Positions 1-42,335 of a DNA stretch of 64,000 nt are shown here, piece after piece. The translations under genes were made by a program, and so were the position numbers. Under the pieces are notes generated by a model. The model had not been told where the DNA came from. It saw only the letters and a program-made list of their open reading frames with translations, and made no database searches. Numbering within the stretch: position 1 is the first letter of the stretch; each line of letters opens with the position of its first letter. Origin of the DNA: a virus (lineage: Duplodnaviria; Caudoviricetes); the IMG/VR virus record IMGVR_UViG_3300027759_000001, one strand, 5' to 3'.

Positions 1-1368
1 ACTATTGAAGACTTTGAAGAAATTATTCCAAGAGCACTTAATACAGATAAAGAAAGACAACTTGGAGTTCCATTCAACATTTCGTGGGGTGGGGGTACTC
101 AAGGACTACATGAGAACTTAACTTTCTCATCAACAACTTATCCTTATAACAATTACATTCAGGATCCTGAATTATTCCCTGAGAATATTCTTAGTGGAAC
201 AACATTTGCGGGAATGAAAACAAATATTTTATTGGAACAAAATTTTGGTGGAACATTTGAGGGTGGTATATCTCAATTTAGAATGTATGTGACACCATTA
301 TCATCGGCTGAGGTTAAACATAATTTTAATATATTGAAAGGTACTTTTGATATGTTTGATTACGATTGTCCTGATTGTGATGTATTAGTTTGTGATGTAA
401 ATGATTTCACATATGAAATTGAAACAACAACTACAACTCATCCATTAATAACAACAACTACAACTCATCCATTAATAACAACAACCACCACGACAAATTT
501 AACAACAACAACTACAACACAAAATATTAATTGTCCTTATGTTTTTTTTATGAAACAAGGGAATAATTTGTGTTCTAATATTTATCAATATGACCCAATA
601 AATAATTTAGAAACTAATGTTACAGTTCCAAATTGTAGTACATACGGAGCCCCAACCGGGATAGCCAACACAAATACAAAATTATGGACAATTGATGGAA
701 ATACAAATAATATTACAGAATGGGATATTATAATGTCACCATTTAGTTCCAATTATGTTAAAACTATTACAACCTCAAACCCATTTGATTTTAGAACTAG
801 ATTTATATCTGCATATAGAGACCCTATAAGTGGTTTAGTTGACCCTAATTTTTTAATATCTTCGTCATCTTCAACTATTGTCCCACAATTAACTGAAATT
901 ATAAAAATTAATATTAGCGGTTTAAGTTGGACTAAAATTACTTTATTTAATTGGCCATCATCAATATATGATAATAGGATTATTAAAAAATTGATGATGA
1001 CAACAACTAATAAAATAATAATTTTAAATTATGATAGTCTTACTAGTGACCAATTTATAACCCAATTAGAGTATGTTGGGGGTATTTGGAGTTTAATGTT
1101 AGATGTTAATATTACAGTCTCAAGTGTAACATATGACACAATTTATCAAAATTCTTCATCTAATTATTTATTATCAGATAATATTCCTGCGGATGTTTAC
1201 AGTATTAACAATTCTTTTTCTAAAACTTTTATAGACCAATTAAATATATCTGGTGTGTATTTTTCATCTCAAGACCCAAATTGCGTTAATAATGAATTTA
1301 TTAATGGACCATTAGTTACACCAACTCCAACTCATCCATTAATAACAACAACTACAACAATAATATGA
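1..1368 (+). CDS. 5'-truncated large probable virion protein: end of a LamG/ConA-like domain, Cys motif, Thr-rich linker, beta-propeller-like domain, Thr-rich tail
   Basis: Frame 1 is open from base 1 ([22 protein letters not shown]...) into the tracked ORF at 214, so the true start lies left of the window. [24 protein letters not shown] resembles a LamG C-terminus. HPLITTTTT occurs three times. Confidence 0.6.
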
Positions 1369-1865
1369 GTAATTCAATAATTATAAAAAGTATAAATTAC
1401 GATGGTGAGGTTGCAAATATAATATTTAAACCTGACAATGATAATGTTGTAATTAATTTAGGTGATGTAACTTTACCTTGTACATTTAACCCTTCGTTGT
1501 TAATACCACCAAGAGAAATATATGGTACTTATACTATATTAGTATTAAACGATCAATGTCTTAATAGTGATTGTCCTTACATATTAAATGTTGTTAGACC
1601 AACTCCTACTCCAACTCCTACACCAACATTAACGTCAACTCCAACTAACACACCAACACCAACACCTACACCAACAGAAACAAAATATGTTTGTGTACCA
1701 ACACCAACAATCACGGTAACACAAACAATGACTTCAACACCAACGGCAACACCTCATCCGACGTGTACAAATCCGTGTGGTTGTCCATCACCAAGTAGAA
1801 CTCCTAAACCAACAAGGACACCAACACAAACTGCGACAAATGGGTATTGTCCAATACTACCGTAG
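1365..1865 (+). CDS. Probable virion decoration protein: adaptor domain A plus Pro/Thr-rich tail with Cys motifs
   Basis: ORF overlaps the previous stop. N-terminus ([19 protein letters not shown]...INLGDVTLP...YGTYTILV) aligns by eye with the N-terminus of 38347..39438; a PTPT repeat follows. Confidence 0.6.
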
Positions 1866-1898: not shown

Positions 1899-2204
1899 AT
1901 GTTAATATTACAAATTGATGGTATAACAGGGGCTACCGCACCTTACAATTTATATGTCTGTGATGTCTATGGTAATCAATGTGCGGTTTTGGCAACAATA
2001 AATACTCCGATCCCACCATCAATAACATTAAACGTACCATCTCAATTTAATAATGTTCCAGCAATTGGTCTTAAAATCATTGATGTAAATGGTTGTGAAC
2101 AATTTGGAATCATCTATTGTGGAGATGTCAAGGGTAAAATATTCCAATCATCAGAGGTATTCTTATTCCAAGATGCAAATATTTATATTTTTGAGGACCA
2201 ATAA
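1899..2204 (+). CDS. Small Cys-containing probable structural protein (domain B)
   Basis: PYNLYVCD...C...KIIDVNGCE matches the N-terminus of 27337..29502 (PYNIYVCD...C...KIIDSRNCE). Confidence 0.6.
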   Translation: MLILQIDGITGATAPYNLYVCDVYGNQCAVLATINTPIPPSITLNVPSQFNNVPAIGLKIIDVNGCEQFGIIYCGDVKGKIFQSSEVFLFQDANIYIFEDQ

Positions 2205-27336: not shown

Positions 27337-29502
27337 ATGCCAAATCAAATAACATTAACGGTATCAACTGGAACACCACCATATAATATTTATGTGTGTG
27401 ATATAACAAATACGTATTGTTATTTTGCAACAACTTTTGTTGGTGGAACAATAACCTTTGATTCTCCGGCACCATTAGAATATACAACACCAATTTTAAT
27501 AAAAATAATTGATTCACGTAATTGTGAATCATTCCAATATTACCAATGTGTCCCTACTCCAACACCAACATTGACACCAACATTAACACCAACCCCAACT
27601 GGTCCTTGTACTTGTTGTTGTCTTGCGGTTAGTTGTAATAATGGTAGTGGAGGATCTTTCACTTATACCGATTGTTTTGGAAACGTTATAGGTAATGTTT
27701 TGGTTGCTGGTAATTCTATTGTGTATTATTGTGGTAGTAATGTTACTAATTTAAATAACGTTGCGGTTAATTATGGATCACCTTGTGTTAGTGGAACTTG
27801 TATATTACCTGTTCCAACTGCAACTCTTACACCAACTCAAACACCAACTCCCACTAACACTCAGACTTTAACGCCAACACCTACATTAACACAAACTGTA
27901 ACACAAACATTAACGCCAACTCAAACACCAACACCTACTAACACTCAGACTTTAACTCCAACACCTACATTAACACAAACGTTAACTCAAACTAATACTC
28001 AAACATTAACTCCAACACCAACTAATACTCAGACGTTAACACAAACATTAACACCAACTAATACTCAGCCTTTAACTCAAACACCTACATTAACACCTAC
28101 ATTAACACAAACAGTTACAAGAACTTTAACCCCAACACCTACATTAACAAAAACATTAACACAAACTGTAACACAAACTTTAACACCAACCCCAACTAAT
28201 ACTCAGACGTTAACGCAAACTTTAACTCCAACACCTACATTAACACCTACATTAACTCAAACTAACACTCAAACATTAACGCCAACTTTAACTCCAACAC
28301 CTACTAACACTCAGACTTTAACTCCAACTCCAACTAATACTCAAACTGTAACTCCAACTAACACACAAACTTTAACTCCAACTCCAACTAATACTCAGAC
28401 GTTAACGCAAACTTTAACTCCAACACCTACATTAACACCTACATTAACACAAACTAATACACAAACTTTAACGCCAACTCCAACTAACACACAAACATTA
28501 ACACAAACAGTTACGAAAACTTTAACTCCAACACCTACATTAACACAAACTAATACTCAAACTTTAACTCCAACTCCAACTAATACTCAGACGTTAACGC
28601 AAACTTTAACTCCAACACCTACATTAACACAAACAGTTACGGGAACTTTAACTCCAACACCTACTAACACTCAAACTTTAACGCAAACTGTAACACCAAC
28701 TTTAACTCCAACACCTACATTAACACAAACAGTTACAAGAACTTTAACCCCAACACCTACATTAACTCAAACTTTAACGCAAACTGTAACACCTACATTA
28801 ACACAAACGTTAACTCAAACTAATACTCAAACATTAACTCCAACTCCAACTAACACACAAACATTAACTCAAACTGTAACACAAACTTTAACTCCAACTC
28901 CAACTAATACTCAAACTCCAACTCCAACTAATACTCAAACTGTAACCCCAACTCAAACATTAACGCAAACAGTTACGGGAACTTTAACACCAACTCCAAC
29001 TAATACTCAGACATTAACTCAAACATTAACACAAACAGTTACGAAAACTTTAACTCCAACACCGACATTAACACAAACTGTAACACAAACTTTAACTCCA
29101 ACTCCAACTAATACTCAGACGTTAACACAAACGGTTACGAGAACTGTAACTCCAACACAGACGTTAACACAAACAGTTACAAAAACTTTAACTCCAACTC
29201 CTACACCAACTCAAACTTTAACACAAACATTAACACAAACAGTTACAAAAACTTTAACTCCAACACCTACATTAACTCAAACTTTAACACAAACATTAAC
29301 ACAAACAGTTACGAAAACTTTAACTCCAACACCTACATTAACTCAAACATTAACACAAACAGTTACGAAAACTTTAACTCCAACACCTACATTAACTCAA
29401 ACTGTAACACCAACTCTAACTAGAACCGTAACACCAACTTTAACTACAACACCAACTAAAACTCCAACACCTACATTAACAAAAACTAAACCTCTTCCAT
29501 AA
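27337..29502 (+). CDS. Cys-rich domain B and a second Cys-rich domain, followed by an approximately 555-aa (Thr-X)n mucin-like tail
   Basis: Thr at almost every second residue from 27817 to about 29487; ends KPLP* with no C-terminal domain. Confidence 0.75.
27817..29487 (+). repeat. 6-nt-period (ACN-NNN) Thr-X repeat built from reshuffled [14 protein letters not shown] blocks
   Basis: Visible directly in DNA and translation. Confidence 0.85.
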
Positions 29503-29564: not shown

Positions 29565-30812
29565 ATGAGAATATTTGTACAAATTGCATCTTACAGAGAT
29601 CCCCAATTAATCCCAACAATTAAAGATATGTTGGAAAAATCAAAAAAACCAAAAAACATTAGACTTGGTATCGCAAGACAATTTCACCCTGAAGACGGTT
29701 TTGACGATCTTTCAGAATATGAAAATGACAACAGATTTAGAATTTTAAATATACCTTACACCGATTCAACAGGAGTTTGTTGGGCAAGAAACTTGACACA
29801 ACAATTATATGAAGGTGAAGAATATACATTACAATTAGATTCTCACATGAGATTTGAACAGGATTGGGATGACACCTTAATCAAAATGATTAAACAATTA
29901 CAAAAGAAAGGATATAAGAAACCTTTGTTGACGGGATATGTTTCTTCATTTGATCCTGATAATGATCCACAAGGGAGAGTTAAAGAGCCATGGAGAATGG
30001 CATTTGACAGATTCACACCTGAAGGTTGTGTTTTCTTTTTACCTGAAACAATACCAGGTTGGGACAAATTAAAGTCTCCAATCCCCTCAAGATTTTATTC
30101 GGCACATTTCTGTTTTACTTTAGGTCAATTTTCAACTGAAGTACAACATGATCCTGAGTTTTATTTTCACGGAGAAGAAATTTCAATTGCGGTAAGAGCA
30201 TATACTCACGGATATGATTTATTCCACCCACATAAAACGGTTATTTGGCATGAGTATACTCGTAAGGGTAGAACAAAACAATGGGATGATGATAAAGAAT
30301 GGGGTAAACGAAATGAAAGATGTCATCAAAAGAATAGACAATTATTAGGTGTTGATGGTGAAGTTCCCGATAGTGATTTTGGGATCTATGGTTTAGGAAC
30401 TGAAAGAACAATACAAGATTATGAAAAATATTCTGGTCTATTATTTTCAAAAAGAGCGGTACAACAACACACATTAGATAAACAATACCCACCAAACCCT
30501 TACACATATAGTTCTGAAGAAGAATGGAAAGAATCTTTCTCTTCAATATTTAAACATTGTATTGATGTTAATTATGGTAGCGTACCTGAAACAGATTATG
30601 ATTTTTGGGTGGTAGCATTCCATAATGCAAAAGATGAAACGTTATATAGATTAGATGCTGGAATCGATGAGATTAATAGAATGAAAAATGATCCTGATGG
30701 TTATTGTAAAGTATGGAGAGAATTTAATGCTACGGATAAACCAACCTATTGGGTTGTATGGCCTCACTCTGTATCAAAAGGGTGGTGTGATAGATTAACA
30801 GGTAATTTATAA
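29565..30812 (+). CDS. GT60-like polypeptide alpha-GlcNAc transferase (GlcNAc/PF11397-like)
   Basis: IFVQIASYRD...TI, G.CWAR...Q.LY.GE.Y.LQLDSHMRF...WD, F.SAHF.F, FHGEE, ..RAYTHGYD...P...V.WH.Y.R. Confidence 0.75.
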   Translation: MRIFVQIASYRDPQLIPTIKDMLEKSKKPKNIRLGIARQFHPEDGFDDLSEYENDNRFRILNIPYTDSTGVCWARNLTQQLYEGEEYTLQLDSHMRFEQDWDDTLIKMIKQLQKKGYKKPLLTGYVSSFDPDNDPQGRVKEPWRMAFDRFTPEGCVFFLPETIPGWDKLKSPIPSRFYSAHFCFTLGQFSTEVQHDPEFYFHGEEISIAVRAYTHGYDLFHPHKTVIWHEYTRKGRTKQWDDDKEWGKRNERCHQKNRQLLGVDGEVPDSDFGIYGLGTERTIQDYEKYSGLLFSKRAVQQHTLDKQYPPNPYTYSSEEEWKESFSSIFKHCIDVNYGSVPETDYDFWVVAFHNAKDETLYRLDAGIDEINRMKNDPDGYCKVWREFNATDKPTYWVVWPHSVSKGWCDRLTGNL

Positions 30813-30815
30813 AAT

Positions 30816-31529
30816 ATGACTTTAGCAGTAATAACTCAAATTAGGAATGAATCAAAAAGATTAAAAGAGTGGGTAGAATTTCATTCTTCTTTTCATAAAA
30901 TAGACCATTTTTTATTTTATTTAGATAATCCTGAAGATAATTCTGAAGAAATGTTAAATGAATTAAAAAAAACATATAGCATTGATTATAAATTTACAAA
31001 TCCTATTGGTGAATATAATGGCAATAATTGTACAATAGCAACAGAAAGACAAAAAGAATCGTTTAAAGATGGTTTTATATTTTTAAGAGATAAATTTGAT
31101 TGGGTTGCAATTTTTGACGTTGATGAATGGATTGTACCTAATAACATAGATGATTATGATTTAAAAAAAACGTTATCTGAAGTTAGTGAAAACATTCTTT
31201 ATCTTCCTATGTATAATTTTATCCCACCTTTTGATTACGATAAATCAATTACTGAACAAAATTTTTATAGATGGTCGTGTCAAGAACGAATAGATAATGA
31301 ACATTTAAGTTGTGGTAAATCAATTATTAGAGGTAAAATTTATTTAGATAGAATATTTGATGTAGATGTTCATATAGGTCCAGCTCTTGATGGATATAGA
31401 AATAATGTAGATTTTAATTCAACAAACCACACATTTAGGTTACATCAATTTCAAGGACATATGGGACATTCTAATAAAAAATATGAAATTTTTGATGACT
31501 CAATAAAAAAAATAATAAATAAAAAATAA
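30816..31529 (+). CDS. GT-A fold glycosyltransferase (GT2_4/GT92-like)
   Basis: IRNE...LKEW..FH......F..Y.DN..D, W.AIFDVDEW, KSI.R. Confidence 0.7.
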   Translation: MTLAVITQIRNESKRLKEWVEFHSSFHKIDHFLFYLDNPEDNSEEMLNELKKTYSIDYKFTNPIGEYNGNNCTIATERQKESFKDGFIFLRDKFDWVAIFDVDEWIVPNNIDDYDLKKTLSEVSENILYLPMYNFIPPFDYDKSITEQNFYRWSCQERIDNEHLSCGKSIIRGKIYLDRIFDVDVHIGPALDGYRNNVDFNSTNHTFRLHQFQGHMGHSNKKYEIFDDSIKKIINKK

Positions 31530-31535
31530 AAAAAT

Positions 31536-32078
31536 ATGAAGAAAATTTTTATAGATGGTGGAGCAAGAATTGCCGAATCATTTGACATAATTAATCGTGA
31601 TATGCCTCAATACTCTAATTTTGAATTTATATTGTACGAACCTCACCCAAATCATACTGATTTTTTAGAAAATCTTTCTAAAGAAAAAAATTTTAAATTT
31701 GTTAATGGTGCTATTTGGGATAAAACAGGATTATCCGATTTTTATCTTGCTATTGATTTTTATGGTGATCAAGGAAGTACATTATGTGATGACAAAAAAG
31801 AAAAATTAGATTTAGAAAATCCTATTAAAGTTAACACATATGATATTGTTGATATATTAAATGAGTTTAGTGATGATGATTATATTGTATTAAAATTAGA
31901 TGTTGAGGGTGGAGAGTATGATATTATACAGAGATTAATAGATACTAATAATTTACATAGAGTTAATGAGTATATTATAGAATGGCATGACCAATTTTAT
32001 GAGGGTAAACGAAAACCAAGATGGTATTTTATTGATGAAATAAATAAATTTAGCACACATAGAGATTGGGTGTATTAA
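31536..32078 (+). CDS. FkbM-family methyltransferase
   Basis: FIDGGAR, YEP.P, GAIW...G, LKLDVEGGEYDI. Confidence 0.75.
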   Translation: MKKIFIDGGARIAESFDIINRDMPQYSNFEFILYEPHPNHTDFLENLSKEKNFKFVNGAIWDKTGLSDFYLAIDFYGDQGSTLCDDKKEKLDLENPIKVNTYDIVDILNEFSDDDYIVLKLDVEGGEYDIIQRLIDTNNLHRVNEYIIEWHDQFYEGKRKPRWYFIDEINKFSTHRDWVY

Positions 32079-32088
32079 AAATAAAATT

Positions 32089-32871
32089 ATGAAAAAAAAA
32101 ATAGCAGTTATATCAGGTTGGTATAACTTTGGGGAAAATAACGGAATTAGTGATGACAATAGGTTTATGACTAATTGTTTTTATGAAAGTGCAAAAAAAC
32201 ACTTTTTACCTCATCACGATGTTGAATTTATTTTTATGAACAATAGTGATATCACAATAGATGGGGTAACAAATATAAATTTTGATTATCAAATTGAGGG
32301 GTTTTGGGAAATGTGTTTAATGAAAATTTTAAGTTTAAAATTTTTAAAAAACGAATATGACTATATATTTGTTCATGATAATGATCAAGTTTACATTAAA
32401 GACGTAAATAACAAAATATTAGAATCTGATTTTACATTTGTGGACCATTTTTATCCATCACCCGTTAAGGATATTTACGAACAAGTAACAGATATAGTAG
32501 AACTAAACTTCAACACATCTGAAGAAAAATGGACTATGGGTAATTTTTTTGGTGGAAAACAAAAAAATATGATGGAGTTATTATCAATAACTGAAGAACA
32601 AAATAAAAAATATTTTGGTTATAATTTTAATCAAAATTATTTTTATTCAAGGTATCCTGAAGAACTTTTTATTGTTAAATATGTTTATGAAAATAATATT
32701 AACCATAAAAGGCTTAATACGTGTGTACATCCATTACAATCTGAGGGGGAATATTTTTTAAGCGATTGGGGTGATGATGATTCGGTTCCTTTTGAGGTTA
32801 CAAACGTAAATTTATTACACAACACTAAAAAAAATTTAAATAAATTAAGAAAATTATATAAACAAAATTAA
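32089..32871 (+). CDS. Divergent GT6-like (ABO/alpha-1,3-Gal(NAc) transferase-like) glycosyltransferase
   Basis: FYESAKKHFL.HHDVEFIF, YDYIFVHDND (DxD), GNFFGG, YPEELF..KY in place of WHDESHLNKY. Confidence 0.55.
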   Translation: MKKKIAVISGWYNFGENNGISDDNRFMTNCFYESAKKHFLPHHDVEFIFMNNSDITIDGVTNINFDYQIEGFWEMCLMKILSLKFLKNEYDYIFVHDNDQVYIKDVNNKILESDFTFVDHFYPSPVKDIYEQVTDIVELNFNTSEEKWTMGNFFGGKQKNMMELLSITEEQNKKYFGYNFNQNYFYSRYPEELFIVKYVYENNINHKRLNTCVHPLQSEGEYFLSDWGDDDSVPFEVTNVNLLHNTKKNLNKLRKLYKQN

Positions 32872-32880
32872 AAAAATTAT

Positions 32881-34218
32881 ATGGAAGAAAATAAAAAAAT
32901 AGTTATAGCACAATTTTTTACCACTAACCTTAGTTATGGTAAATTTACAAAAGAAATAAATAAAAAGTATTGTGATGAAAAAGGATACATATATCATTTA
33001 GAGTCCGACAATAATAAAATAAAAACTGCATTAGAAGGTAGATCCCCAACATGGTATAAACCAAAATTTATTAATGAGGTTTTTGAGTTATATAATCCTG
33101 ATTACATTCTTTTTTTAGATGCAGATGCGATAGTATGTGATTTTAGTTATAAAGTGGAAGATTTTATTGATTCAGATTATAATATTATATGTACCGAAGA
33201 TTATGGACCTAGTAAATTAAATGCTGGTGTTTTCATAATGAAAAATTCAGATTGGACAAAACGAGTAATGAATAAATGGTGGGAGACAGGTAATAATTTA
33301 GTTGGAGGACCAAATAATGAAATGGGGTTCTATAAAACGGGATTATGGCACGATCAAACTTGTTTCGGACATTTAATGGATATTATGCCCGATTCTAAAA
33401 CAAACATTAAATTAATAACTAATAAAGTATTAAACGGTAGAGAGTATAAAAATAACGTAGATAAAAATTTTATATTTCACGCCTTCTCTTATGGTATGTT
33501 ACCAAATAGAACCATTGATAAATGTTATTACGACATCTTCAATATAGATATCCCTGATGGTGAAAAATTATCTGATATTGTAGAATATTACGATACGGAT
33601 AAACATTATGAACATAATTATTTAAGATTAATTTACGATGATTTATTTCTTCCCATACGAGAAGAAGTTAAAACTTTTGTTGAGATAGGTGTGAATCATG
33701 GAGGATCTATTTTAATGTGGAGAGATTATTTTAAAAACTCAAAAGTTTTAGGGTTAGATAATAATTTACCTTTCTGTGAAGAAAAATTAAGAGATAAAAA
33801 TTTAGATCGTATTGAATTAATTAATCTTGACCAATCAATTCCTGAAATGTTAGAAACATTTGCAAACCAATATAGTGACATTGATGTTATATTAGAAGAT
33901 GGTTCACATAGAATGCACGATCAACAAATCACATTAGCAAAATTATTTAAAACATTAAAGTCAGGGGGGATATATGTACTTGAGGACTTACATACTAGTT
34001 TAGAGGCTCCGATGCCTGAAAAGGCTTGGTGTGGGTGGGGAGACTCAACAAAAACATTAACCTTAGATATGTTAAACAATTTCATATCAACGGGCAAAAT
34101 ACAATCCGATTATTTAACGGAAGATGAGATTAATTATTTAAATGATAATATTTTATCTGTAGAGATATATCAAAATAGACCCGATTGGAGTATAACAAGT
34201 GTAATAATAAAAAAATAA
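32881..34218 (+). CDS. GT34/GMA12-MNN10-like glycosyltransferase fused to a class I SAM sugar O-methyltransferase (MycE/TylE-like)
   Basis: W.KP..I...YILFLDADA...LNAGVFI.KN..W...WHDQ, then DK...H.Y...EIGV..GGS..MWRDYF....LGLD...EDGSH...GG.YVLED. Confidence 0.7.
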   Translation: MEENKKIVIAQFFTTNLSYGKFTKEINKKYCDEKGYIYHLESDNNKIKTALEGRSPTWYKPKFINEVFELYNPDYILFLDADAIVCDFSYKVEDFIDSDYNIICTEDYGPSKLNAGVFIMKNSDWTKRVMNKWWETGNNLVGGPNNEMGFYKTGLWHDQTCFGHLMDIMPDSKTNIKLITNKVLNGREYKNNVDKNFIFHAFSYGMLPNRTIDKCYYDIFNIDIPDGEKLSDIVEYYDTDKHYEHNYLRLIYDDLFLPIREEVKTFVEIGVNHGGSILMWRDYFKNSKVLGLDNNLPFCEEKLRDKNLDRIELINLDQSIPEMLETFANQYSDIDVILEDGSHRMHDQQITLAKLFKTLKSGGIYVLEDLHTSLEAPMPEKAWCGWGDSTKTLTLDMLNNFISTGKIQSDYLTEDEINYLNDNILSVEIYQNRPDWSITSVIIKK

Positions 34219-35180
34219 TGATAGGTATAGTTCACCACACATTTCTTACAGGTAACTGGCAAGAAATATTAAATTCCCAAATAGAAAGACTTATATCTTC
34301 TGGGTTATATGACAACGCAGATATTATATGGTTTACTTGTAATTTAAATGGAAATGATGAAAATGTATTCACCGACTTTCTTAAAGATTACAATAAAATA
34401 CAAACCGAATGTCATGTTAATAATGGAGCTGAATACCCTGGTATTCATAAAGTAAAAGAATTAGGTGATAACAATGAGGACATGAAGATCCTTTATTTTC
34501 ATGGTAAAGGAGTTAGTAATACATATACAAATAACGAAACTAAAGAAGTTAATGAAGATAAAGTAAAAAATATACAATCATGGAGAGAGTGTTTGGAATA
34601 TTTTGTCATTGATAAATGGAAAGATTGTGTTGATAAATTAGACGAATATGATAATGTTGGTGTTACTTGTAATGGTGGTTGGTATTGGGGTAACTTTTGG
34701 TGGTCACAATCTAAACACATAAAAAAATGTAGACCCGTTGATTATTGGGGTAGGTGGGATTATGAAGCTTGGTTAAATTCGTATGTGGAAAATCAAACTA
34801 ATTATGAATTTTTTAAATTTACGTATAACCCATATGTTACTATTATACATGAGGATTGGTATAAAAAAATAAGAACTGAAAATGACCCAATTAAAATAAC
34901 GGTATTAAATGCATTTTATGGTACCCCTCCATTTGAAATTGATGAGGGTTATTCAAATATTCCATTAAATGTTACGGAAGATGTTAAGAGTGTAATAGAA
35001 GAAAAATTGAAGGAACAGAATAATGAAAAATTTTATTTTCCCGTTAATAACGAATCTATGGGTTGTGACCCATCACCTGGAAATAGAAAGTTTTTATTTA
35101 TTGAATTTTATTTAAGTAACAGTAATAACATTTATAAATTAGGACTTCATGAAGGGATGTTCTTTGACCAAAAATTTTAA
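34218..35180 (+). CDS. Putative glycosyltransferase (YFHGKG...GNFWW family) with a C-terminal SUEL-like lectin domain
   Basis: Start moved to ATG 34218 (TAATG overlap with the previous stop). ILYFHGKG, GNFWWS; C-terminus LNAFYG...DV...MGCDPSPG.RKFLFIEF. Confidence 0.5.
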   Translation: MIGIVHHTFLTGNWQEILNSQIERLISSGLYDNADIIWFTCNLNGNDENVFTDFLKDYNKIQTECHVNNGAEYPGIHKVKELGDNNEDMKILYFHGKGVSNTYTNNETKEVNEDKVKNIQSWRECLEYFVIDKWKDCVDKLDEYDNVGVTCNGGWYWGNFWWSQSKHIKKCRPVDYWGRWDYEAWLNSYVENQTNYEFFKFTYNPYVTIIHEDWYKKIRTENDPIKITVLNAFYGTPPFEIDEGYSNIPLNVTEDVKSVIEEKLKEQNNEKFYFPVNNESMGCDPSPGNRKFLFIEFYLSNSNNIYKLGLHEGMFFDQKF

Positions 35181-35189
35181 AAAATAATT

Positions 35190-37550
35190 ATGGAAGATTT
35201 TTTTGACAAGGTTTTACACTACTATGGTAGAAAAGGTGAAAAACTATTTATGATTAACATTGGTGCAATGGACGGTGTTTTATTTGATAGTATGAGTGGT
35301 TATGCGGATATGTATAATTCAGATGTGTTATATGTGGAACCAATGAAACCTCACTTTGACAGATTGGTTAAACATAAAGGAGGTAACCCAGCTAATAAGT
35401 TTGAGAACTCCGCAATTAGTAACTACAACGGAACTATAAACATGAAAACAATTCCAATTGAGATTGTTGATCAAGGATTAGTTCATCAAGCATTTTATGG
35501 TATGAGCGTTATTGACCCAACAAAGAATGGTATGGGTAGTGAAGGAGATAGAGAAGTTGTTGAGAAGTATGCCGTAGATGTTGAGGTTAATTGCATTACT
35601 TGGGATACGTTAGTTAAAAAACACGATATAGATTATTTTGATGTATTATCTGTAGATACGGAGGGACATGACTATACAATATTCAAACAAATTGATTTAG
35701 AAAAATTTAGACCTATTTTAATACGTTTAGAATGGTGTAATATGACAGACGAAGAAAAAACTAACATCCTTAATAAATTTACCTCATCAGGATATGTTTA
35801 TGAAATTTTGGATAATATGGATATTGATGCGGTTAGAGAAGATGTGTATGAAGAAATAAAGTCAAAATTAGAACCAAAACAAATAATTGAAACCTCAAAC
35901 TCAAAACTTACATTAGTGACAGGTCTTTGGGATATTGGAAGAGGTGACCTTCAAGAAGGGTGGTCTAGATCATTTCAACATTATTTAGATAAATTTCAAC
36001 AACTATTACAGGTTGATGTGAATATGATAATATTTGGAGATAAAGAATTAGAAGAATTTGTATTAAACAATAGAAGTAGTGAAAACACACAATTTGTAAT
36101 CAGGGATTTATCTTGGTTTAAAAATAATGATTTTTATGATAAAATACAAAAGATAAGAACTAACCCTGATTGGTATAATCAAATTGGTTGGTTAACAAAT
36201 TCTACACAAGCTAAATTAGAAATGTATAATCCTTTGGTAATGTCCAAAGTTTATCTTTTACACGATGCAAAGATTTTAGATAAGTTTGATTCAGAATATA
36301 TGTTTTGGATTGATGCTGGTTTAACAAATACAATTCATCCAGGATACTTCACTCAAGATAAAGTTTTAAATAAATTACCTCAATTGGTTAAGAATTTTCA
36401 CTTTGTTTGTTTCCCTTATGAAACAAATAGTGAAATACATGGATTTAAATATCAAGAGTTGTGTGATTTAGCGGGTAAACCTGTTAATATGGTTGCTAGA
36501 GCTGGTTTCTTTGGTGGAAAAAAAGATGTTATTTCTGAAATCAATAGTATATACTATGGATTAATGAACGATACTTTATCACAAGGGTTAATGGGAACTG
36601 AAGAGTCGTTATTTACAATTATGACCTACAAATATCCTAATTTAATAACGTATTCCGAAATAGAAAATAATGGTTTGATGGGTAAATTTTTTGAGGATTT
36701 AAAAAATATGACGGTTGAAACTAAAATTAATGATATTGGTAGTGAGATAGGATTATATGTTATTACGTTTAATTCACCAAAACAATTTGAGACTCTAATT
36801 GAGTCAATGTTAGACTACGATCCATCATTCGTAACTAAAACTAAAAAATATTTACTTAATAACTCAACAGATTTAACGACAACCGAAAGATATATTCAAC
36901 TATGTAACCAATATGGGTTTGAACATATTAAAAAAGATAATATTGGTATAACAGGTGGAAGACAATTTATTGCTGAACATTTTAATGAACAAAATAATTT
37001 AAGTCATTATTATTTTTTTGAGGATGATATGTTTTTTTATAATGGGGGAGATATAACTTGTAAAAATGGATTTGTTAGAAAAATAAAAAACATATTTGAC
37101 AACACATTAAAAATAATAAAAGAAGAAAATTTTGATTTTTTAAAGTTAAACTTTAGTGAATTTTATGGTAGTCACAATAAACAATGGGCTTGGTATAATG
37201 TTCCACAATCTTTCAGAGAATCCCATTGGGTAAACAATCCAAGATTACCCGAACATGGTTTGGATGCTAACTCACCTAATTTAGAATTTAAACACATAAA
37301 ATCTTATAATGGAATACCATATGCTACAGGTGAAATTTATTTGTGTAACTGGCCAATAGTCATGTCAAAAGAAGGTAATTACAAATGTTATCTTAAAACA
37401 AAATATGGTATGCCTTATGAACAAACTCTTATGTCCCATTGTTATCAAGAAATGGTAAAGGGTAATATAACGGGTTCTGTATTACTTTCAACACCAACTG
37501 ATCACAATAGATTTGATTTTTATGATGGTAATTTGAGAAAAGAATGTTAA
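35190..37550 (+). CDS. Three-domain enzyme: FkbM-like methyltransferase + HtrL/YibB-like glycosyltransferase + GT2-like domain
   Basis: IGAMDG...VEP...VDTEGHD; TLVTGLWDIGR...WIDAG...FFGG...GTEE; VITFNSP...FFEDDM. Confidence 0.65.
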   Translation: MEDFFDKVLHYYGRKGEKLFMINIGAMDGVLFDSMSGYADMYNSDVLYVEPMKPHFDRLVKHKGGNPANKFENSAISNYNGTINMKTIPIEIVDQGLVHQAFYGMSVIDPTKNGMGSEGDREVVEKYAVDVEVNCITWDTLVKKHDIDYFDVLSVDTEGHDYTIFKQIDLEKFRPILIRLEWCNMTDEEKTNILNKFTSSGYVYEILDNMDIDAVREDVYEEIKSKLEPKQIIETSNSKLTLVTGLWDIGRGDLQEGWSRSFQHYLDKFQQLLQVDVNMIIFGDKELEEFVLNNRSSENTQFVIRDLSWFKNNDFYDKIQKIRTNPDWYNQIGWLTNSTQAKLEMYNPLVMSKVYLLHDAKILDKFDSEYMFWIDAGLTNTIHPGYFTQDKVLNKLPQLVKNFHFVCFPYETNSEIHGFKYQELCDLAGKPVNMVARAGFFGGKKDVISEINSIYYGLMNDTLSQGLMGTEESLFTIMTYKYPNLITYSEIENNGLMGKFFEDLKNMTVETKINDIGSEIGLYVITFNSPKQFETLIESMLDYDPSFVTKTKKYLLNNSTDLTTTERYIQLCNQYGFEHIKKDNIGITGGRQFIAEHFNEQNNLSHYYFFEDDMFFYNGGDITCKNGFVRKIKNIFDNTLKIIKEENFDFLKLNFSEFYGSHNKQWAWYNVPQSFRESHWVNNPRLPEHGLDANSPNLEFKHIKSYNGIPYATGEIYLCNWPIVMSKEGNYKCYLKTKYGMPYEQTLMSHCYQEMVKGNITGSVLLSTPTDHNRFDFYDGNLRKEC

Positions 37551-37577: not shown

Positions 37578-38300
37578 ATGGAATTTTACATTAAGAAAAA
37601 TGCTACGTTACCCGTTTTAAAGATGCAAGTCGTTAAAGACGGTAGAAGTGATTATAATAAGATGATGGAAATGATTGAGGAATCTTCTATCTTCTTTTCA
37701 ATGGTAGATACTGAGACTGGAATTCCAAGAATTGTTACAAGACCCGCAGGATTTGTTGAGAAAACATTATTGGACCCAAATGCTGAGTATGAGTATTATG
37801 TTTATTATCAGTTCACATCAAATGATACAAGAAAAGTTGGTAGATATGAAGGTCAGTTCTTATTAAGAAATTCAGATGGCACATTAATTTTACCAATCAG
37901 AGAAAAACTTTATATAAACGTACAAGAAAGTTTCATTGCGGATGATCTTCCGTATGAATCTTGTTATGTTGTTGGTTTCCCTTGTTGTGCTAGTATACCT
38001 ACAACAACTACAACCACAACAACACCTTGTCCTAGTTGTAGGGCTTGTTGCCCACCAACTCCAACACCATTACCGACAACAACAACTACTACATATATAC
38101 CAATCACAACAACAACAACAATCCACAATGATTTTGTTGTTTTAGACATACCAGAAAATGATGTAAACTTTGGTTTAGTAATAACTAATTTAGTTCCTAT
38201 AGAAATACCTGAAGATGATGTAAACTTTGATTTGGTTATTACAAATTTAGTCCCTATAGAAATACCTGAAGATGATGTAAACTTTGATTTAATAATTTAA
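37578..38300 (+). CDS. BppU-like Ig-fold structural protein with Cys/Thr linker and acidic 19-aa repeats
   Basis: YIKKNATLP.L...Y.F...DT...GRYEGQF...LPI.E.LYINV; then PTTTTTTTTPC; then repeats. Confidence 0.55.
   Translation: MEFYIKKNATLPVLKMQVVKDGRSDYNKMMEMIEESSIFFSMVDTETGIPRIVTRPAGFVEKTLLDPNAEYEYYVYYQFTSNDTRKVGRYEGQFLLRNSDGTLILPIREKLYINVQESFIADDLPYESCYVVGFPCCASIPTTTTTTTTPCPSCRACCPPTPTPLPTTTTTTYIPITTTTTIHNDFVVLDIPENDVNFGLVITNLVPIEIPEDDVNFDLVITNLVPIEIPEDDVNFDLII
38148..38297 (+). repeat. 57-nt tandem repeat (about 2.6 copies) encoding IPE(D/N)DVNF(D/G)LVITNLVPIE
   Basis: Copies start at 38148, 38205 and 38262. Confidence 0.85.
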
Positions 38301-38346
38301 AATTATAAGATATTTATAAATAAAAATAAAAAGAAAAATAAAAAAA

Positions 38347-39438
38347 ATGATACAAGGAATAAGAATTACAAGTCAAAATTTATCGGGGGATACCGCTAAT
38401 GTTACTTTTAACCCACAAACGGGTGGTACAATTAATTTAGGTACACAAACAATACCTTTTAATAATATCACAAATTATCCTTATGGTACTTATGAATTAT
38501 TTGTACCTGAATTTAATTACACATATGATGTAATTGTCCCAGCCCCGCAAAATGGTCAGGATGCATATACGACAACAGTTAGAGACGTTACAATAGATGG
38601 TGGATTAAAACCATTCTCAGGAGCGGTATTATCTGAAGTATGGGGGACATATACAACTGATTATATTACAAATCAAGGAATACCATCAACATCTATTGTT
38701 TTAGCTGAAGGTATTTGTTCTGATGATGTTGACGCATCAAAAGTACCATCAAATATTGGTCAATGGCCAAATAGTATTAATTCGTTTTTAGGTCCATTTA
38801 TGTCAGGTGGATTAGCGGGATATCCATTTGTGGGTAGTGTTGGTTTTGGGGCATTTGCAAGTCACGTAGCAACAAGTGGTGCTACCGAAACAAATGCCAC
38901 TTTATTTGTTACGAGTATGCCACATATTGGTGTGACTGAAGATGGTCGTTCAGGAAGAATGTTACGTAGAGGTAAAGCTGATAGTATAACAGATAATACT
39001 TGTGGTGCAGTTTGGGGAGCAATTAACCAAGTTGTAAATGTTTTATCAGCACCTCCAAGTCAAAGTAATCCACCATTTGATAATGGTAATTATTCTTTTT
39101 GGAAGTTAACAGATATTTTATGGCCATTTAAAAACGTATTATCAGGATTTACAGGAACTAGTGAGGAAATATATAATAAACAAATGATTTTTGCGACAGA
39201 AACAATTAGAGATGCCGCATATGATTATATTATTGATGTTTTACCAAGTCAAGTGACGGGTAACACACAAAACGATGTATATTTTTTAAGTGGTATTTTT
39301 ATCAATACTGATGTTATTCCTGACAGTACATTACAATTTGAATCTTATGTTGTTGTTGATAAAGTTATGAAATATGAATTTGGTATTGGTTGGAGTGATA
39401 TTACCATTAGTTATAACACTGGATTACCAATTGACTAA
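38347..39438 (+). CDS. Adaptor domain A fused to an LCIB/LCIC-type beta-carbonic anhydrase domain
   Basis: ICSDD, F.SGGLAGYPF.G..GFGAF.SHV, PHIGV...G..G...RRG, TCGA. The Cys/His/Cys zinc ligands are all present. Confidence 0.7.
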   Translation: MIQGIRITSQNLSGDTANVTFNPQTGGTINLGTQTIPFNNITNYPYGTYELFVPEFNYTYDVIVPAPQNGQDAYTTTVRDVTIDGGLKPFSGAVLSEVWGTYTTDYITNQGIPSTSIVLAEGICSDDVDASKVPSNIGQWPNSINSFLGPFMSGGLAGYPFVGSVGFGAFASHVATSGATETNATLFVTSMPHIGVTEDGRSGRMLRRGKADSITDNTCGAVWGAINQVVNVLSAPPSQSNPPFDNGNYSFWKLTDILWPFKNVLSGFTGTSEEIYNKQMIFATETIRDAAYDYIIDVLPSQVTGNTQNDVYFLSGIFINTDVIPDSTLQFESYVVVDKVMKYEFGIGWSDITISYNTGLPID

Positions 39439-39551: not shown

Positions 39552-42335
39552 GTGATATCACAAGAAGAAATAAAAAGTTTCCTAGAAGGGAACGATCCTG
39601 AGGAACATATTGTTTCCGTAGAGTTTGATTACGTATCAGACCACATTTTCAAAATTAAAGAAGTACCTGGTAAAGGTAAAATTATACAACAAGATTCGTT
39701 AATCGCGTTTGCTTGGGTTGGTGATCTACGTGGTCTTAACTTTTACGAAGGTTCCAAAGCATTGCAAAAACAGGCGATGGGTAAATATGGTATCCTCATA
39801 GAAAAACTCCGAACAGATGGTAATGAACGATTAGAAGAAGGATTAACCTTTATGGTTAAATCCATTAAAGGATATCGTTCTTTAACCCAATTCTTCCGTG
39901 ATGGTGGAATTGATCCGTGGGGTGAAAAGGCAAAAGATAAAATCCTAATGGTTTCTCCTGTGGAACAATACCTCATCTCAAAAGAGAAAAGATTGTTCAA
40001 AGGGTTTGAGGAATACAATGATATAACGAGGTTTGTATTTGACCTTGAGACGACCGCATTAGAACCAAAGGATGGTCGTATCTTTATGATTGGAATGAAA
40101 ACAAATAAAGGATTCCAAAAAGTTATTGAATGTTCAAACGAAGATGAGGAACGAGCAGGTCTTGTGGAGTTCTTCAAAACAATAGACCAACTTAAACCAT
40201 CAATCATTGCGGGGTATAACTCAGCAAACTTTGACTGGTTTTGGATATTTGAAAGATGTAAATCACTTCATTTAGATATTAAGAAGATTGCAATCTCAAT
40301 GAATGCTAAAAAGACAATATCACAAAAAGAATCAATGTTAAAGTTGGCAAATGAGGTTGAAAGATTTAATCAAGTTCAAATGTGGGGTTATAATGTAATT
40401 GATATTATTCACTCAGTTCGTAGATCACAAGCGATCAACTCAAACATTAAAGAGGCAGGTTTGAAGTATATTACCAAGTTTATTGATGCCGAAGCAAAAG
40501 ATCGTATCTATATTGACCACACAAGTATTGGTCCAATGTATGCAGAAAAGGACGAATATTGGTTAAACGTAGAAAATGGTAATTACAAAAAAGTTGGATC
40601 CGATCCAAAGGTAGATGAGATATGTGTAAGACGAGGGGATGTATATCTTAAAACAACGGGGGACGACATAGTTGAGCGTTATCTTGACGATGACCTTGAG
40701 GAAACGTTGATTGTGGATGACGAGTTCAACCAAGCAACGTTTCTATTAGCATCCTTGGTACCAACAACATATGAAAGAGCATCCACAATGGGAACGGCAA
40801 CATTATGGAAAATGGTAATGTTGGCTTGGTCATATAAATATGGTTTGGCAATACCACAGAAAAAAGAACGAAGAAGTTTTGTTGGTGGTTTATCACGTTT
40901 ACTTAAAGTAGGTTATTCTAAGGACGTTCTTAAGCTTGACTACTCGTCACTATACCCATCCATTCAGTTAGTTCACGACGTGTTCCCTGAGTGTGATATA
41001 ACGGGAGCAATGAAGGGGTTATTAACCTACTTCCGTAACTCTCGTATTATGTATAAGAACTTGGCGGCAGAATATAAAACCATAGATAAGAAGAAATCAA
41101 CATCTTTTGACCGTAAACAATTACCTATTAAGATCTTTATTAATGCGTTCTTCGGATCGTTATCAGCACCACAGGTATTTCCGTGGGGTGATATTGACAT
41201 GGGGGAACAGATTACTTGTACAGGTAGACAATACCTACGACAAATGTTAAAGTTCTTTAGTAAACGAGGATATAGTCCTTTGGTATGTGATACCGATGGT
41301 ATGAACTTCTCATTACCTGATGGTGGTGTTGATGACAGAGTTTATATAGGTAAAGGAAAAAATTGGTTGGTTAAAGAGGGTAAAGAATATCGTGGTTATG
41401 ATGCCGATGTTGCAGAGTTTAATGATATCTTTATGAAAGGTGAAATGGGACTTGATTGTGATGGTACTTGGGATTCTTGTATTAACTTGGCTCGTAAGAA
41501 CTACGCAACAATGGAACAAAATGGTAAGGTTAAATTAACGGGTAATAGTATTAAGTCTAAGAAGATGCCAAAATACATTGAGAAGTTTTTGGATAAGGGA
41601 GTTAAACAATTACTTAGAGGTGAGGGTAAAGAATTTATTGAGTGGTATTATGAGTATATCCAAAAGATATTTGACCAAAGAGTTCCGTTGGCTGAGATTG
41701 CATCTAAATCAAGAGTTAAATTAAGTGTTGAGGATTACATCAAACGTAGTAAACAAACTACTAAAGCGGGTAATCTTAATTCACGAATGGCTCATATGGA
41801 ACTTCTTATTAGAGATGGGATACAATCAAATCTTGGAGATACAATCCTTTATGTTAACAACGGAACAAAGGCATCTCATGGTGATGTTCAGAAAGTTAAT
41901 GAAAAAATGACTAAGAAGGAAAAAGATGAATACTTTGAGAAACACGGTAAAATGCCAGTACTTGGTTCACACGTAGAATTAAATTGTTATCGTATTGAAC
42001 CATCGGATTTAGAAAATAACCCCGAAATGTTAGGGGAATATAATATCCAAAGAGCAATTGCAACTTTTAACAAACGAGTTGAACCTTTGATGATTGTATT
42101 TGATGATGAGGTTAGAGATACTTTATTAGTTAAGGATCCTGAAGATAGAAGTTTCTATACATCAGACCAATGTAAATTGATTAATGGTAAACCATTTAGT
42201 CCTGGTGACCAAGATGATGTTTACGAAAACTTAATTAAAATGGAACAAGGTGAAGTAGAGTTTTGGGAATCTGTCGGTATTGATCCAAACTATATGTATG
42301 GATTGGCCGAAGAAGGTTGGGAAGAATTCGTGTGA
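39552..42335 (+). CDS. polB: Family B DNA polymerase with 3'-5' exonuclease
   Basis: ExoI FDLETT, ExoII YNSANFD, ExoIII Y..DD; Pol DYSSLYPSI, KIFINAFFG, CDTDG. GTG start. Confidence 0.95.
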   Translation: MISQEEIKSFLEGNDPEEHIVSVEFDYVSDHIFKIKEVPGKGKIIQQDSLIAFAWVGDLRGLNFYEGSKALQKQAMGKYGILIEKLRTDGNERLEEGLTFMVKSIKGYRSLTQFFRDGGIDPWGEKAKDKILMVSPVEQYLISKEKRLFKGFEEYNDITRFVFDLETTALEPKDGRIFMIGMKTNKGFQKVIECSNEDEERAGLVEFFKTIDQLKPSIIAGYNSANFDWFWIFERCKSLHLDIKKIAISMNAKKTISQKESMLKLANEVERFNQVQMWGYNVIDIIHSVRRSQAINSNIKEAGLKYITKFIDAEAKDRIYIDHTSIGPMYAEKDEYWLNVENGNYKKVGSDPKVDEICVRRGDVYLKTTGDDIVERYLDDDLEETLIVDDEFNQATFLLASLVPTTYERASTMGTATLWKMVMLAWSYKYGLAIPQKKERRSFVGGLSRLLKVGYSKDVLKLDYSSLYPSIQLVHDVFPECDITGAMKGLLTYFRNSRIMYKNLAAEYKTIDKKKSTSFDRKQLPIKIFINAFFGSLSAPQVFPWGDIDMGEQITCTGRQYLRQMLKFFSKRGYSPLVCDTDGMNFSLPDGGVDDRVYIGKGKNWLVKEGKEYRGYDADVAEFNDIFMKGEMGLDCDGTWDSCINLARKNYATMEQNGKVKLTGNSIKSKKMPKYIEKFLDKGVKQLLRGEGKEFIEWYYEYIQKIFDQRVPLAEIASKSRVKLSVEDYIKRSKQTTKAGNLNSRMAHMELLIRDGIQSNLGDTILYVNNGTKASHGDVQKVNEKMTKKEKDEYFEKHGKMPVLGSHVELNCYRIEPSDLENNPEMLGEYNIQRAIATFNKRVEPLMIVFDDEVRDTLLVKDPEDRSFYTSDQCKLINGKPFSPGDQDDVYENLIKMEQGEVEFWESVGIDPNYMYGLAEEGWEEFV

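What the first reader, a model, noticed from the sequence alone, without database searches (positions are those of the whole stretch)
38347..39438. LCIB-type carbonic anhydrase mounted on a virion-type adaptor domain
Seen: the first 65 aa align with the N-terminus of the Pro/Thr protein at 1365 (I.S.N..G..AN..F.P......INLG..T.P.....YGTY...V). The rest carries LCIB-family motifs with intact C, H and C ligands, and a TATTTAT motif precedes the gene. Known: LCIB/LCIC proteins are zinc beta-carbonic anhydrases of algal CO2-concentrating systems, with some bacterial homologues. Inference: a phage-displayed carbonic anhydrase (local pH or carbonate control) or an enzyme fold reused structurally. I do not know a described precedent.
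Basis: partly seen in the sequence, partly recalled or inferred. Interest (0 to 1): 0.75.

Follow-up and report, generated by a model that had tools for sequence, protein, structure and literature searches.

The report
Phage carbonic anhydrase on docking module
An uncultured freshwater jumbo phage encodes an apparently functional algal-type (LCIB/theta) zinc carbonic anhydrase joined to a small N-terminal module that the same phage group puts on many fibre-like proteins, so the enzyme is probably carried on the virus particle, although this has not been shown.

Summary
ORF 38347-39438 (363 aa) matches Pfam LCIB_C_CA (E 1.7e-27). Its high-confidence model has the PtLCIB4 fold, and the zinc ligands (C124, H193, C219) and catalytic residues (D126, H173, R207) are intact and near-invariant in relatives. 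It is predicted to form the usual active-site-sharing dimer.

Residues 1-68 form a small beta-sandwich. They are homologous to the N-terminus of ORF 1365-1865. The module always sits at the N-terminus of dozens of other protein clusters, usually followed by a Pro/Thr linker and a binding-type cargo. It also occurs as stand-alone 70-90 aa proteins.

An oriented ATATTTAT motif precedes this gene, the tail sheath, the tail tube and the head-tail adaptor, but not the polymerase or the sugar-transferase genes. This points to late expression.

The enzyme belongs to a strongly supported LCIB branch. The members I could place lie on phage or phage-like contigs, and N-terminal modules are exchanged within the branch.

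Not shown: enzyme activity, presence in virions, and what the module docks to. A soluble intracellular enzyme remains a serious rival.

I found no paper describing phage LCIB-type enzymes. This scan has already reported the same protein family on three other phage genomes.

The parts
38310..38317 (+). ATATTTAT upstream motif, a candidate late promoter element, 36 nt before the ATG
   Evidence: The same oriented motif lies upstream of the tail sheath (49053), tail tube (53426), head-tail adaptor (42696, minus strand), the collagen-like giant (2236) and others. It is absent before PolB and the glycosyltransferase genes.
38347..38550 (+). N-terminal module 'adaptor A' (aa 1-68): a six-strand Ig-like beta-sandwich with the near-invariant motif N-L-S-G-x-T
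   Evidence: Homology to ORF 1365. N-terminal-only matches to dozens of 50%-identity clusters at E 1e-11 to 1e-21. Alignment A3. Model pLDDT 87. No match in PDB, Pfam or PHROGs.
38551..38601 (+). Short, ordered connector (aa 69-85). It has no Pro/Thr linker, unlike the other adaptor-A proteins.
   Evidence: comparison of N-termini. (10-residue block pLDDT 82-95 across the junction, pTM 0.84).
38602..39435 (+). LCIB/theta-type beta-carbonic-anhydrase domain (aa 86-363)
   Evidence: Pfam PF18599 E 1.7e-27. Foldseek to 5b5y, 5b5z and 6kfs at E 3e-15 to 7e-15, TM by target 0.79-0.81. Predicted homodimer through aa 115-328.
38716..38724 (+). C124-S125-D126: first zinc ligand, a Ser at the PtLCIB4 S47 position, and the catalytic Asp
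   Evidence: Alignment to PtLCIB4 and to its S47R mutant. C conserved in 49/51, D in 49/51 and S in 35/51 aligned domains.
38863..38865 (+). H173, the equivalent of PtLCIB4 His88
   Evidence: Conserved in 48/51. Lies in the predicted dimer interface.
38923..38925 (+). H193, second zinc ligand (PHIG motif)
   Evidence: 48/51.
38965..38967 (+). R207 of the conserved R-R-G motif
   Evidence: 48/51; interface residues 207-211.
39001..39003 (+). C219, third zinc ligand (CGA motif)
   Evidence: 48/51.
1365..1865 (+). Second adaptor-A gene of the window: adaptor A, then a Pro/Thr linker, then a Cys-containing tail (166 aa)
37578..38300 (+). Conserved upstream neighbour: a 240-aa protein with a Thr run and tandem repeats, preceded by its own ATATTTAT motif
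   Evidence: The order w29565 - w35190 - w37578 - LCIB - PolB is kept in both clades of relatives. Motif at -21.

Best explanation
The gene encodes a late-expressed, two-domain protein of an uncultured freshwater jumbo myovirus.

The C-terminal 280 residues are an LCIB/theta-type beta-carbonic anhydrase. It binds zinc through C124, H193 and C219, forms a homodimer with the two active sites at the interface, and interconverts CO2 and bicarbonate.

The N-terminal 68 residues are a small beta-sandwich docking module. This phage group places the module at the N-terminus of many interchangeable cargos, mostly long Pro/Thr-linked binding domains. The module tethers the enzyme dimer to whatever structure all these proteins attach to, most likely the outside of the virion.

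Shown: fold, active-site residues, modularity, purifying selection and the upstream motif.

Inferred: catalysis, late timing and virion attachment. What the enzyme does for the phage is open.
For: Enzyme:
- Pfam LCIB_C_CA at E 1.7e-27.
- AF2 model with pLDDT 93.5 and pTM 0.84.
- Best structural matches are PtLCIB4, 6kfs, LCIB and LCIC, followed by canonical beta-CAs.
- Zinc and catalytic residues map onto PtLCIB4 and are conserved in 48-49 of 51 aligned domains.
- The position after the first Cys is Ser, as in wild-type PtLCIB4.
- dN/dS of the CA domain is 0.17-0.28.
- Dimer prediction: score 0.86 against a best control of 0.00. That mark was reached by 20 of 30 proteins solved as pairs and 1 of 23 solved as single chains. 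The three runs agree in at least 87% of contacts and partner pLDDT is at least 86. The interface uses aa 115-328, including residues 125-131, 173 and 207-211, and none of the N-module. LCIB dimers are solved, so this pass may reflect likeness to them.

Module:
- N-terminal-only matches at positions 3-70 in dozens of 50%-identity clusters of 83-829 aa.
- In related loci the module precedes Pro/Thr linkers and varied cargos: DUF285/BspA-type repeats, a beta-propeller and a ConA-like lectin.
- It also occurs as stand-alone 70-88 aa ORFs.
- A 91%-complete relative has six copies. Four of them lie between the large terminase and the portal gene.
- dN/dS of the module is 0.04-0.27.

Timing:
- Oriented ATATTTAT lies upstream of the sheath, tube and head-tail adaptor genes and of this gene. 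It is absent before PolB and the sugar-transferase genes.

Design:
- The window has two further pairs of proteins that share an N-terminal module but differ in their C-termini.
- In another phage-type LCIB protein, the different N-module also recurs as a stand-alone ORF just upstream.
Against: - No virion proteomics exists, and no cultured phage carries a homologue.
- The module has only a generic Ig-like fold, with no specific match to a known capsid- or tail-binding domain.
- In this window and in most relatives, the gene sits between a sugar-transferase block and the DNA polymerase, not inside a fibre cluster.
- Related LCIB proteins on other phage-like contigs have only a short or low-complexity N-terminus. 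The enzyme therefore does not need a docking module.
- Chlamydomonas LCIB and LCIC have the same intact site but showed no activity in vitro (review PMC5876011). An intact site does not prove catalysis.
- The role of the ATATTTAT motif as a late promoter is inferred. Only 7 of 19 distinct relatives keep the exact motif before this gene; most of the rest carry ATATTAT at the same place.
Confidence: 0.5

Rival explanations
1. It is a soluble auxiliary metabolic enzyme. The carbonic anhydrase works inside the infected cell, for example supplying bicarbonate to carboxylation steps of nucleotide, lipid or anaplerotic metabolism, or buffering pH. The N-module either has no docking role or targets an intracellular assembly.
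For: - LCIB relatives in the same strongly supported clade lack a structured N-module (P0126 and P0138 clusters on L042 and L043).
- The gene lies next to PolB and a sugar-metabolism block in most relatives.
- Alpha, beta and gamma CAs on viral contigs have been read as auxiliary genes (preprint 10.64898/2026.01.21.700432).
Against: - The gene carries the motif shared with the sheath, tube and head-tail adaptor genes. That motif is absent from the replication and sugar-transferase genes.
- The N-module is under purifying selection.
- The module is otherwise found on Pro/Thr-linked binding-type cargos, which are typical of exposed proteins.
Confidence: 0.3
2. The enzyme acts on or with the phage's glycan coat. 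It either uses a substrate other than CO2 or provides bicarbonate or pH control that the glycosylated mucin- and collagen-like virion proteins need during assembly or after release.
For: An LCIB gene lies directly downstream of sugar-nucleotide, glycosyltransferase and methyltransferase blocks in three settings:
- this window;
- its 54%-identity clade;
- two unrelated-looking phage-like contigs, L042 and L043.

A cellular homologue overlaps an epimerase/dehydratase gene. P0001 carries three hydrophobic-S/T-G-x-T motifs against 0.21 expected.
Against: - Adjacency may only reflect a shared accessory region.
- No carbamoyl- or carboxyl-transferase was found in the block.
- The active site is that of a standard CO2-hydrating beta-CA.
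Confidence: 0.12
3. The fold has been taken over for a non-catalytic role. The LCIB fold serves only as a structural or receptor-binding head on the adaptor.
For: - It occupies the position that binding domains occupy in other adaptor-A proteins.
- Chlamydomonas LCIB and LCIC have been proposed to act non-catalytically.
Against: - Zinc ligands, Asp, His and Arg are kept in 48-49 of 51 sequences down to about 25% identity.
- The Ser that the S47R mutant replaces in PtLCIB4 is retained.
Confidence: 0.06

Closest known systems
PtLCIB4 / PtLCIB3 of Phaeodactylum tricornutum (LCIB family, theta-CA, structurally a beta-CA subgroup; PDB 5b5y) and the LCIB_C_CA protein of PDB 6kfs
   Same: - Same Pfam family and same fold (TM by target 0.79-0.81).
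- Cys-His-Cys zinc site, C-S-D motif with Ser, the His88 equivalent and the R-R-G motif.
- Predicted dimer through the active-site face.
   Different: - Only about 20% identity.
- Encoded by a tailed phage.
- Carries a 68-aa N-terminal beta-sandwich module instead of an organelle-targeting sequence.
- No link to photosynthesis: no psbA was found in five related contigs.
Chlamydomonas LCIB/LCIC (PDB 5k5w, 5b5x)
   Same: Same family and fold (Foldseek E 3e-9 to 9e-9).
   Different: - More distant.
- The algal proteins act around the pyrenoid and lacked CA activity in vitro.
- From memory, not checked here: the algal proteins have Arg where this protein and PtLCIB4 have Ser.
Phage decoration and fibre proteins with a conserved virion-binding end and a variable exposed end (for example T5 pb10, T4 Hoc or Soc, and tail fibres with conserved N-terminal anchors); named from general knowledge
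   Same: - A small conserved terminal module.
- A flexible linker in most members.
- Interchangeable exposed cargo.
- Stand-alone copies of the module.
- Several such module families in one genome.
   Different: - No sequence or specific structural similarity to any of them.
- Attachment to the virion has not been shown.
- The cargo is an enzyme of central inorganic-carbon chemistry.
Carbonic anhydrases on viral contigs read as auxiliary genes (preprint 10.64898/2026.01.21.700432)
   Same: A virus-encoded CA with conserved active-site residues.
   Different: - Those are alpha, beta and gamma classes resembling bacterial enzymes.
- This one is LCIB/theta type, belongs to a distinct clade, and is fused to a modular N-terminal domain.

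Membership tests
LCIB / theta-type beta-carbonic anhydrase (Pfam PF18599) | Sequence match to the family profile above the curated threshold | tested here: met
   96.6 bits against a cut-off of 25, E 1.7e-27, profile positions 12-216 of 223.
LCIB / theta-type beta-carbonic anhydrase (Pfam PF18599) | LCIB fold (beta-CA core with the LCIB-specific elements) | tested here: met
   AF2 pLDDT 93.5. Foldseek to 5b5y, 5b5z and 6kfs at E 3e-15 to 7e-15, TM by target 0.79-0.81. Canonical beta-CAs follow at E about 1e-3.
LCIB / theta-type beta-carbonic anhydrase (Pfam PF18599) | Cys-His-Cys zinc ligands | tested here: met
   C124, H193 and C219 align with the PtLCIB4 ligands. Conserved in 48-49 of 51 domains.
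LCIB / theta-type beta-carbonic anhydrase (Pfam PF18599) | Catalytic Asp after the first Cys, the His88 equivalent, a conserved Arg, and Ser rather than Arg at the PtLCIB4 S47 position | tested here: met
   D126, H173, R207 and S125.
LCIB / theta-type beta-carbonic anhydrase (Pfam PF18599) | Homodimer with active sites at the interface | tested here: met
   Prediction only. Score 0.86 against a best control of 0.00 (mark reached by 20 of 30 solved pairs and 1 of 23 single chains). Runs agree in at least 87% of contacts and pLDDT is at least 86. May reflect memory of solved LCIB dimers.
LCIB / theta-type beta-carbonic anhydrase (Pfam PF18599) | Bound zinc and measurable CO2 hydration | not testable with these tools
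   Needs purified protein.
Virion-attached modular fibre or decoration proteins | A conserved terminal module shared by proteins with unrelated cargos | tested here: met
Virion-attached modular fibre or decoration proteins | Genes lie in the structural module and are expressed late | tested here: inconclusive
   Four of six copies in a relative lie between the terminase and portal genes. This gene lies between a Thr-rich repeat gene and PolB. The ATATTTAT motif is shared with the sheath, tube and head-tail adaptor genes, but its function is inferred.
Virion-attached modular fibre or decoration proteins | Module resembles a known capsid- or tail-binding domain | tested here: inconclusive
   Generic Ig-like or FN3 matches only: best Z 6.2 and Foldseek E of at least 0.04. 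No profile hit in PDB, Pfam or PHROGs.
Virion-attached modular fibre or decoration proteins | Protein physically present in particles | not testable with these tools
   No cultured relative.

The most novel reading that the evidence does not exclude
A widespread group of freshwater jumbo phages practises natural 'phage display'. A 65-residue docking module mounts interchangeable cargos on the particle, and one cargo is an active carbonic anhydrase dimer. The virion would then carry its own CO2/bicarbonate-converting activity. That activity could set local pH or bicarbonate around its glycosylated mucin- and collagen-like coat or at the host surface.
Probability: 0.3. Interest if true: 0.8.

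Novelty: new variant of a known kind. Interest (0 to 1): 0.6.

Why it matters
- Carbonic anhydrases are not known as components of phage particles, and I found no report of LCIB-type enzymes in any virus.
- The protein is very well conserved: the best 120 of 392 hits are 75-98% identical to it, on contigs of up to 320 kb. The six DNA runs that hold most of this stretch are labelled freshwater. Whatever the protein does, it matters to an abundant phage group.
- If the enzyme rides on the virion, a virus particle would carry catalytic control of inorganic-carbon chemistry. The adaptor family would also be a natural display scaffold.
- If the enzyme is intracellular, it would be a new class of auxiliary gene for bicarbonate supply.
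- Either way it offers compact, easily expressed LCIB-family enzymes for testing what decides activity in this family.

Tried and rejected
- **Cultured phages.** tblastn of the protein against 50,697 phage records gave no match. PolB has only distant hits, about 23% identity, to Salinibacter and Nostoc/Anabaena phages.
- **Cyanophage idea** (a CA that collapses the host CO2-concentrating mechanism). No Photo_RC/psbA was found in five related contigs, one of them 91% complete. The others are fragments, so this is weak.
- **Fold of the N-module.** Foldseek against PDB and BFVD gave nothing below E 0.04. VIA-align's best Z was 6.2. Type-9-secretion C-terminal domains recur among the matches (Z 5.4-6.0; atlas TM 0.59), but this is within the noise for a small beta-sandwich. 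Profile searches of PDB and PHROGs gave nothing.
- **Contexts of P0134 and P0125.** The contigs are under 2 kb.
- **PHROG annotation around the L043 LCIB gene.** Only an HNH endonuclease was found.
- **Cargo of the common 690-aa adaptor-A proteins.** No Pfam, PHROG or atlas lead.
- **N-termini of other phage-type LCIB proteins against the window.** No match, apart from each protein's own locus and the stand-alone copy of the P0134 module reported above.
- **RNA libraries.** Contigs of four lake metatranscriptome runs touch the gene only at low depth (bins of 2.4 and 2.7) and partly at about 92% identity. Contigs cannot show transcription, start sites or timing, and DNA carry-over is possible.
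- **Promoter scan.** Sigma-70-type promoter and terminator hits around the gene were at chance level. The T4-type TATAAATA motif alone is not enriched: 17 found against 12 expected.

Full report
**What is there**

The window is part of an uncultured tailed phage with a low G+C content of about 30%. It encodes:
- a tail sheath (49053-52394), a tail tube, a baseplate hub and a head-tail adaptor;
- a family-B DNA polymerase (39552-42335);
- two collagen-like proteins of more than 2,300 aa;
- a block of glycosyltransferases and methyltransferases (29565-37550).

The window's own assembly is not held. The nearest virus record is a 44.5-kb fragment rated 15% complete. Close relatives of the gene lie on contigs of up to 320 kb. 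The six DNA runs that hold most of this stretch are labelled freshwater metagenomes.

ORF 38347-39438 is intact and encodes 363 aa.

**The enzyme domain**

- Residues 104-337 match Pfam LCIB_C_CA at E 1.7e-27, 96.6 bits against a cut-off of 25.
- By sequence, the nearest solved structures are 6kfs, 9vzj and PtLCIB4.
- An AlphaFold2 model built on a 67-row alignment has mean pLDDT 93.5 and pTM 0.84.
- Its best structural matches are PtLCIB4 (5b5y, 5b5z), 6kfs, Chlamydomonas LCIB and LCIC. Canonical beta-carbonic anhydrases follow at much weaker scores.
- Alignment to PtLCIB4 and to its S47R mutant fixes these equivalences: C124=C46, S125=S47, D126, H173=H88, H193=H102, C219=C126, and the R-R-G motif.
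- In 51 aligned LCIB domains, down to about 25% identity, C124, D126, H173, H193, R207 and C219 are each kept in 48-49.
- Between close relatives, dN/dS of this domain is 0.17-0.28.

A two-copy complex prediction scored 0.86 against a best control of 0.00. That mark was reached by 20 of 30 proteins solved as pairs and by 1 of 23 solved as single chains. The three runs agreed in at least 87% of contacts, and pLDDT was at least 86. The interface runs through residues 115-328, includes 125-131, 173 and 207-211, and involves none of the N-module. Because LCIB dimers are solved, this shows likeness rather than proof.

Everything that sequence and modelling can test therefore says this is a complete LCIB/theta-type carbonic anhydrase. 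There is one caveat: Chlamydomonas LCIB and LCIC have the same site but no activity in vitro (PMC5876011).

**The N-terminal module**

Residues 1-53 align with the start of ORF 1365-1865 at 40% identity:
- pairwise E is 4e-5;
- E is 2.6e-4 against all six-frame segments of the window, and this is the only hit below the inclusion threshold apart from the query's own gene.

A profile iterated over ORFs of 38 related loci finds the module at the N-terminus of many other proteins, and brings ORF 1365 in at E 4.7e-20.

An exhaustive search of 1.84 billion cluster representatives returned dozens of clusters of 83-829 aa that match only residues about 3-70, always at their own positions 3-70, with E 1e-11 to 1e-21.

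In these proteins the module is followed by a Pro/Thr linker and then the cargo. The few cargos I could identify are binding-type domains:
- DUF285/BspA-like repeats;
- a beta-propeller and a ConA-like lectin.

Stand-alone copies of 70-88 aa also exist. A 91%-complete relative has six copies, four of them between the large terminase and the portal gene.

The module models as a six-strand beta-sandwich with pLDDT 87. It has no specific match in PDB, BFVD, Pfam or PHROGs. The only close structural matches are hypothetical proteins of tailed phages. Its dN/dS is 0.04-0.27.

In the carbonic anhydrase protein the module joins the enzyme through a short, confidently modelled connector instead of a Pro/Thr linker.

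**Expression signal**

TATTTAT lies 36 nt before the ATG. Within 60 nt upstream of a start codon it occurs at 15 of 37 genes. Shuffles of the same regions give 2.1 +/- 1.4. The 8-mer ATATTTAT occurs at 12 genes and its reverse complement at none.

Genes that carry the motif include the sheath, tube, head-tail adaptor, a collagen-like giant and the large tail protein at 56953. PolB and the sugar-transferase genes lack it.

Before the LCIB gene of relatives, the exact motif is kept in 7 of 19 distinct upstream regions. Most of the others carry ATATTAT at the same place. I read it as a late-type promoter element, but this is inference.

**Relatives and context**

The best 120 of the 392 hits are all 75-98% identical to this protein and 340-363 aa long. 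A second clade, at 54% identity, keeps the same architecture.

The order sugar-transferase block - w37578 - LCIB - PolB - head-tail adaptor is conserved in both clades. In a minority of relatives the gene instead sits among other adaptor-A genes.

A maximum-likelihood tree of 40 LCIB domains gives a 21-member clade with 100/99 support that contains this protein. I did not check the context of every member. Those I could place lie on phage or phage-like contigs. One sequence outside the clade (P0178) lies on a cellular-looking 507-kb contig.

Inside the clade, adaptor-A forms are interleaved with forms that carry other N-termini or only a short low-complexity one. One of those other N-modules also recurs as a stand-alone ORF just upstream of its LCIB gene. 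N-terminal modules are therefore exchanged on a conserved enzyme.

On two further phage-like contigs, the LCIB gene again follows a sugar-nucleotide, glycosyltransferase and methyltransferase block. This recurrence is unexplained.

**How it most likely works**

- Shown: a conserved, intact carbonic-anhydrase domain, predicted to dimerise; a modular N-terminal domain family; purifying selection on both; an upstream motif shared with structural genes.
- Inferred: the enzyme is active, is made late, and is tethered through the module to the structure that all adaptor-A proteins bind. The cargo types, linkers and gene positions suggest that this structure is the virion surface.
- Odds: I put about 0.5 on this overall picture and about 0.3 on a soluble intracellular enzyme. 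The remainder is split between a role tied to the glycan coat and a non-catalytic head.
- Unknown: what a particle-borne carbonic anhydrase would achieve. Local control of pH or bicarbonate around the glycoprotein coat or at the host surface is speculation.

**Comparison with what is known**

The protein meets every testable criterion of the LCIB family. It differs from the known members in its host (a phage), its N-terminal module and its lack of any link to photosynthesis.

Viral alpha, beta and gamma carbonic anhydrases have been reported as auxiliary genes. I found no paper on LCIB-type enzymes in phages.

This scan has already reported the same family on three other phage genomes, with similar conclusions. 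My results agree with those reports. They add:
- the dimer prediction, with free N-modules;
- the residue-level mapping, including Ser125;
- the dN/dS values;
- the conserved synteny;
- the repeated adjacency to sugar-modification blocks.

**Verdict**

This is a real feature and a new variant of a known enzyme kind. It is moderately to highly interesting, and the key claim, virion display, is still open.

Noticed in passing
window 1899-2204 and 27337-29502: A second shared N-terminal module. The 101-aa ORF and the 721-aa ORF align over their first 70 residues or so (33% identity, E 1e-8), with conserved Cys positions (PYN-YVCD...C). This is the same 'stand-alone copy plus cargo-bearing copy' pattern as adaptor A.
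   Followed up: partly
window 24498-26066 and 26084-27181: A third shared N-terminal module. Two adjacent genes are 54% identical over their first 93 residues (E 7e-25) and unrelated afterwards. ORF 22251-23222 carries a ConA-like lectin domain (Laminin_G_3, E 1.3e-23).
   Followed up: partly
L042:1-9969 and L043:1-9972 (other phage-like contigs), and window 29565-37550: An LCIB gene lies directly downstream of a sugar-nucleotide, glycosyltransferase and methyltransferase block in three different genomic settings. In L042 and L043 two conserved unknown genes (254 aa and 212 aa) lie between the block and the LCIB gene.
   Followed up: partly
window 38347-39438 (aa 12, 265, 303); also 24498-26066 and 56953-61995: The motif hydrophobic-Ser/Thr-Gly-x-Thr occurs three times in the carbonic anhydrase protein against 0.21 expected from its composition. 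In this window it is otherwise found only in a few fibre- or tail-type proteins and in none of the replication or sugar-transferase proteins. The copy in adaptor A (L-S-G-x-T) is the module's most conserved motif.
   Followed up: partly
proteins P0127 (1722 aa) and P0128 (3009 aa): Two very long proteins match residues about 194-243 of the enzyme (the PHIG...CGA segment) 30 and 49 times. It looks as if a fragment of the LCIB domain has been amplified as a tandem repeat. I did not examine this.
   Followed up: no
L044:4137-7886 (507-kb cellular contig): A 265-aa cellular LCIB homologue sits between a PHO4-family transporter gene and an overlapping NAD-dependent epimerase/dehydratase gene. The contig also carries Bacteroidota-type TonB-dependent receptor and CHU_C genes.
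   Followed up: no
window 37578-38300: The conserved upstream neighbour has a globular N-terminal half, then a run of Thr and Pro/Cys, then three tandem copies of a repeat of about 20 aa (…LVPIEIPEDDVNFDL…). It has no Pfam match.
   Followed up: no
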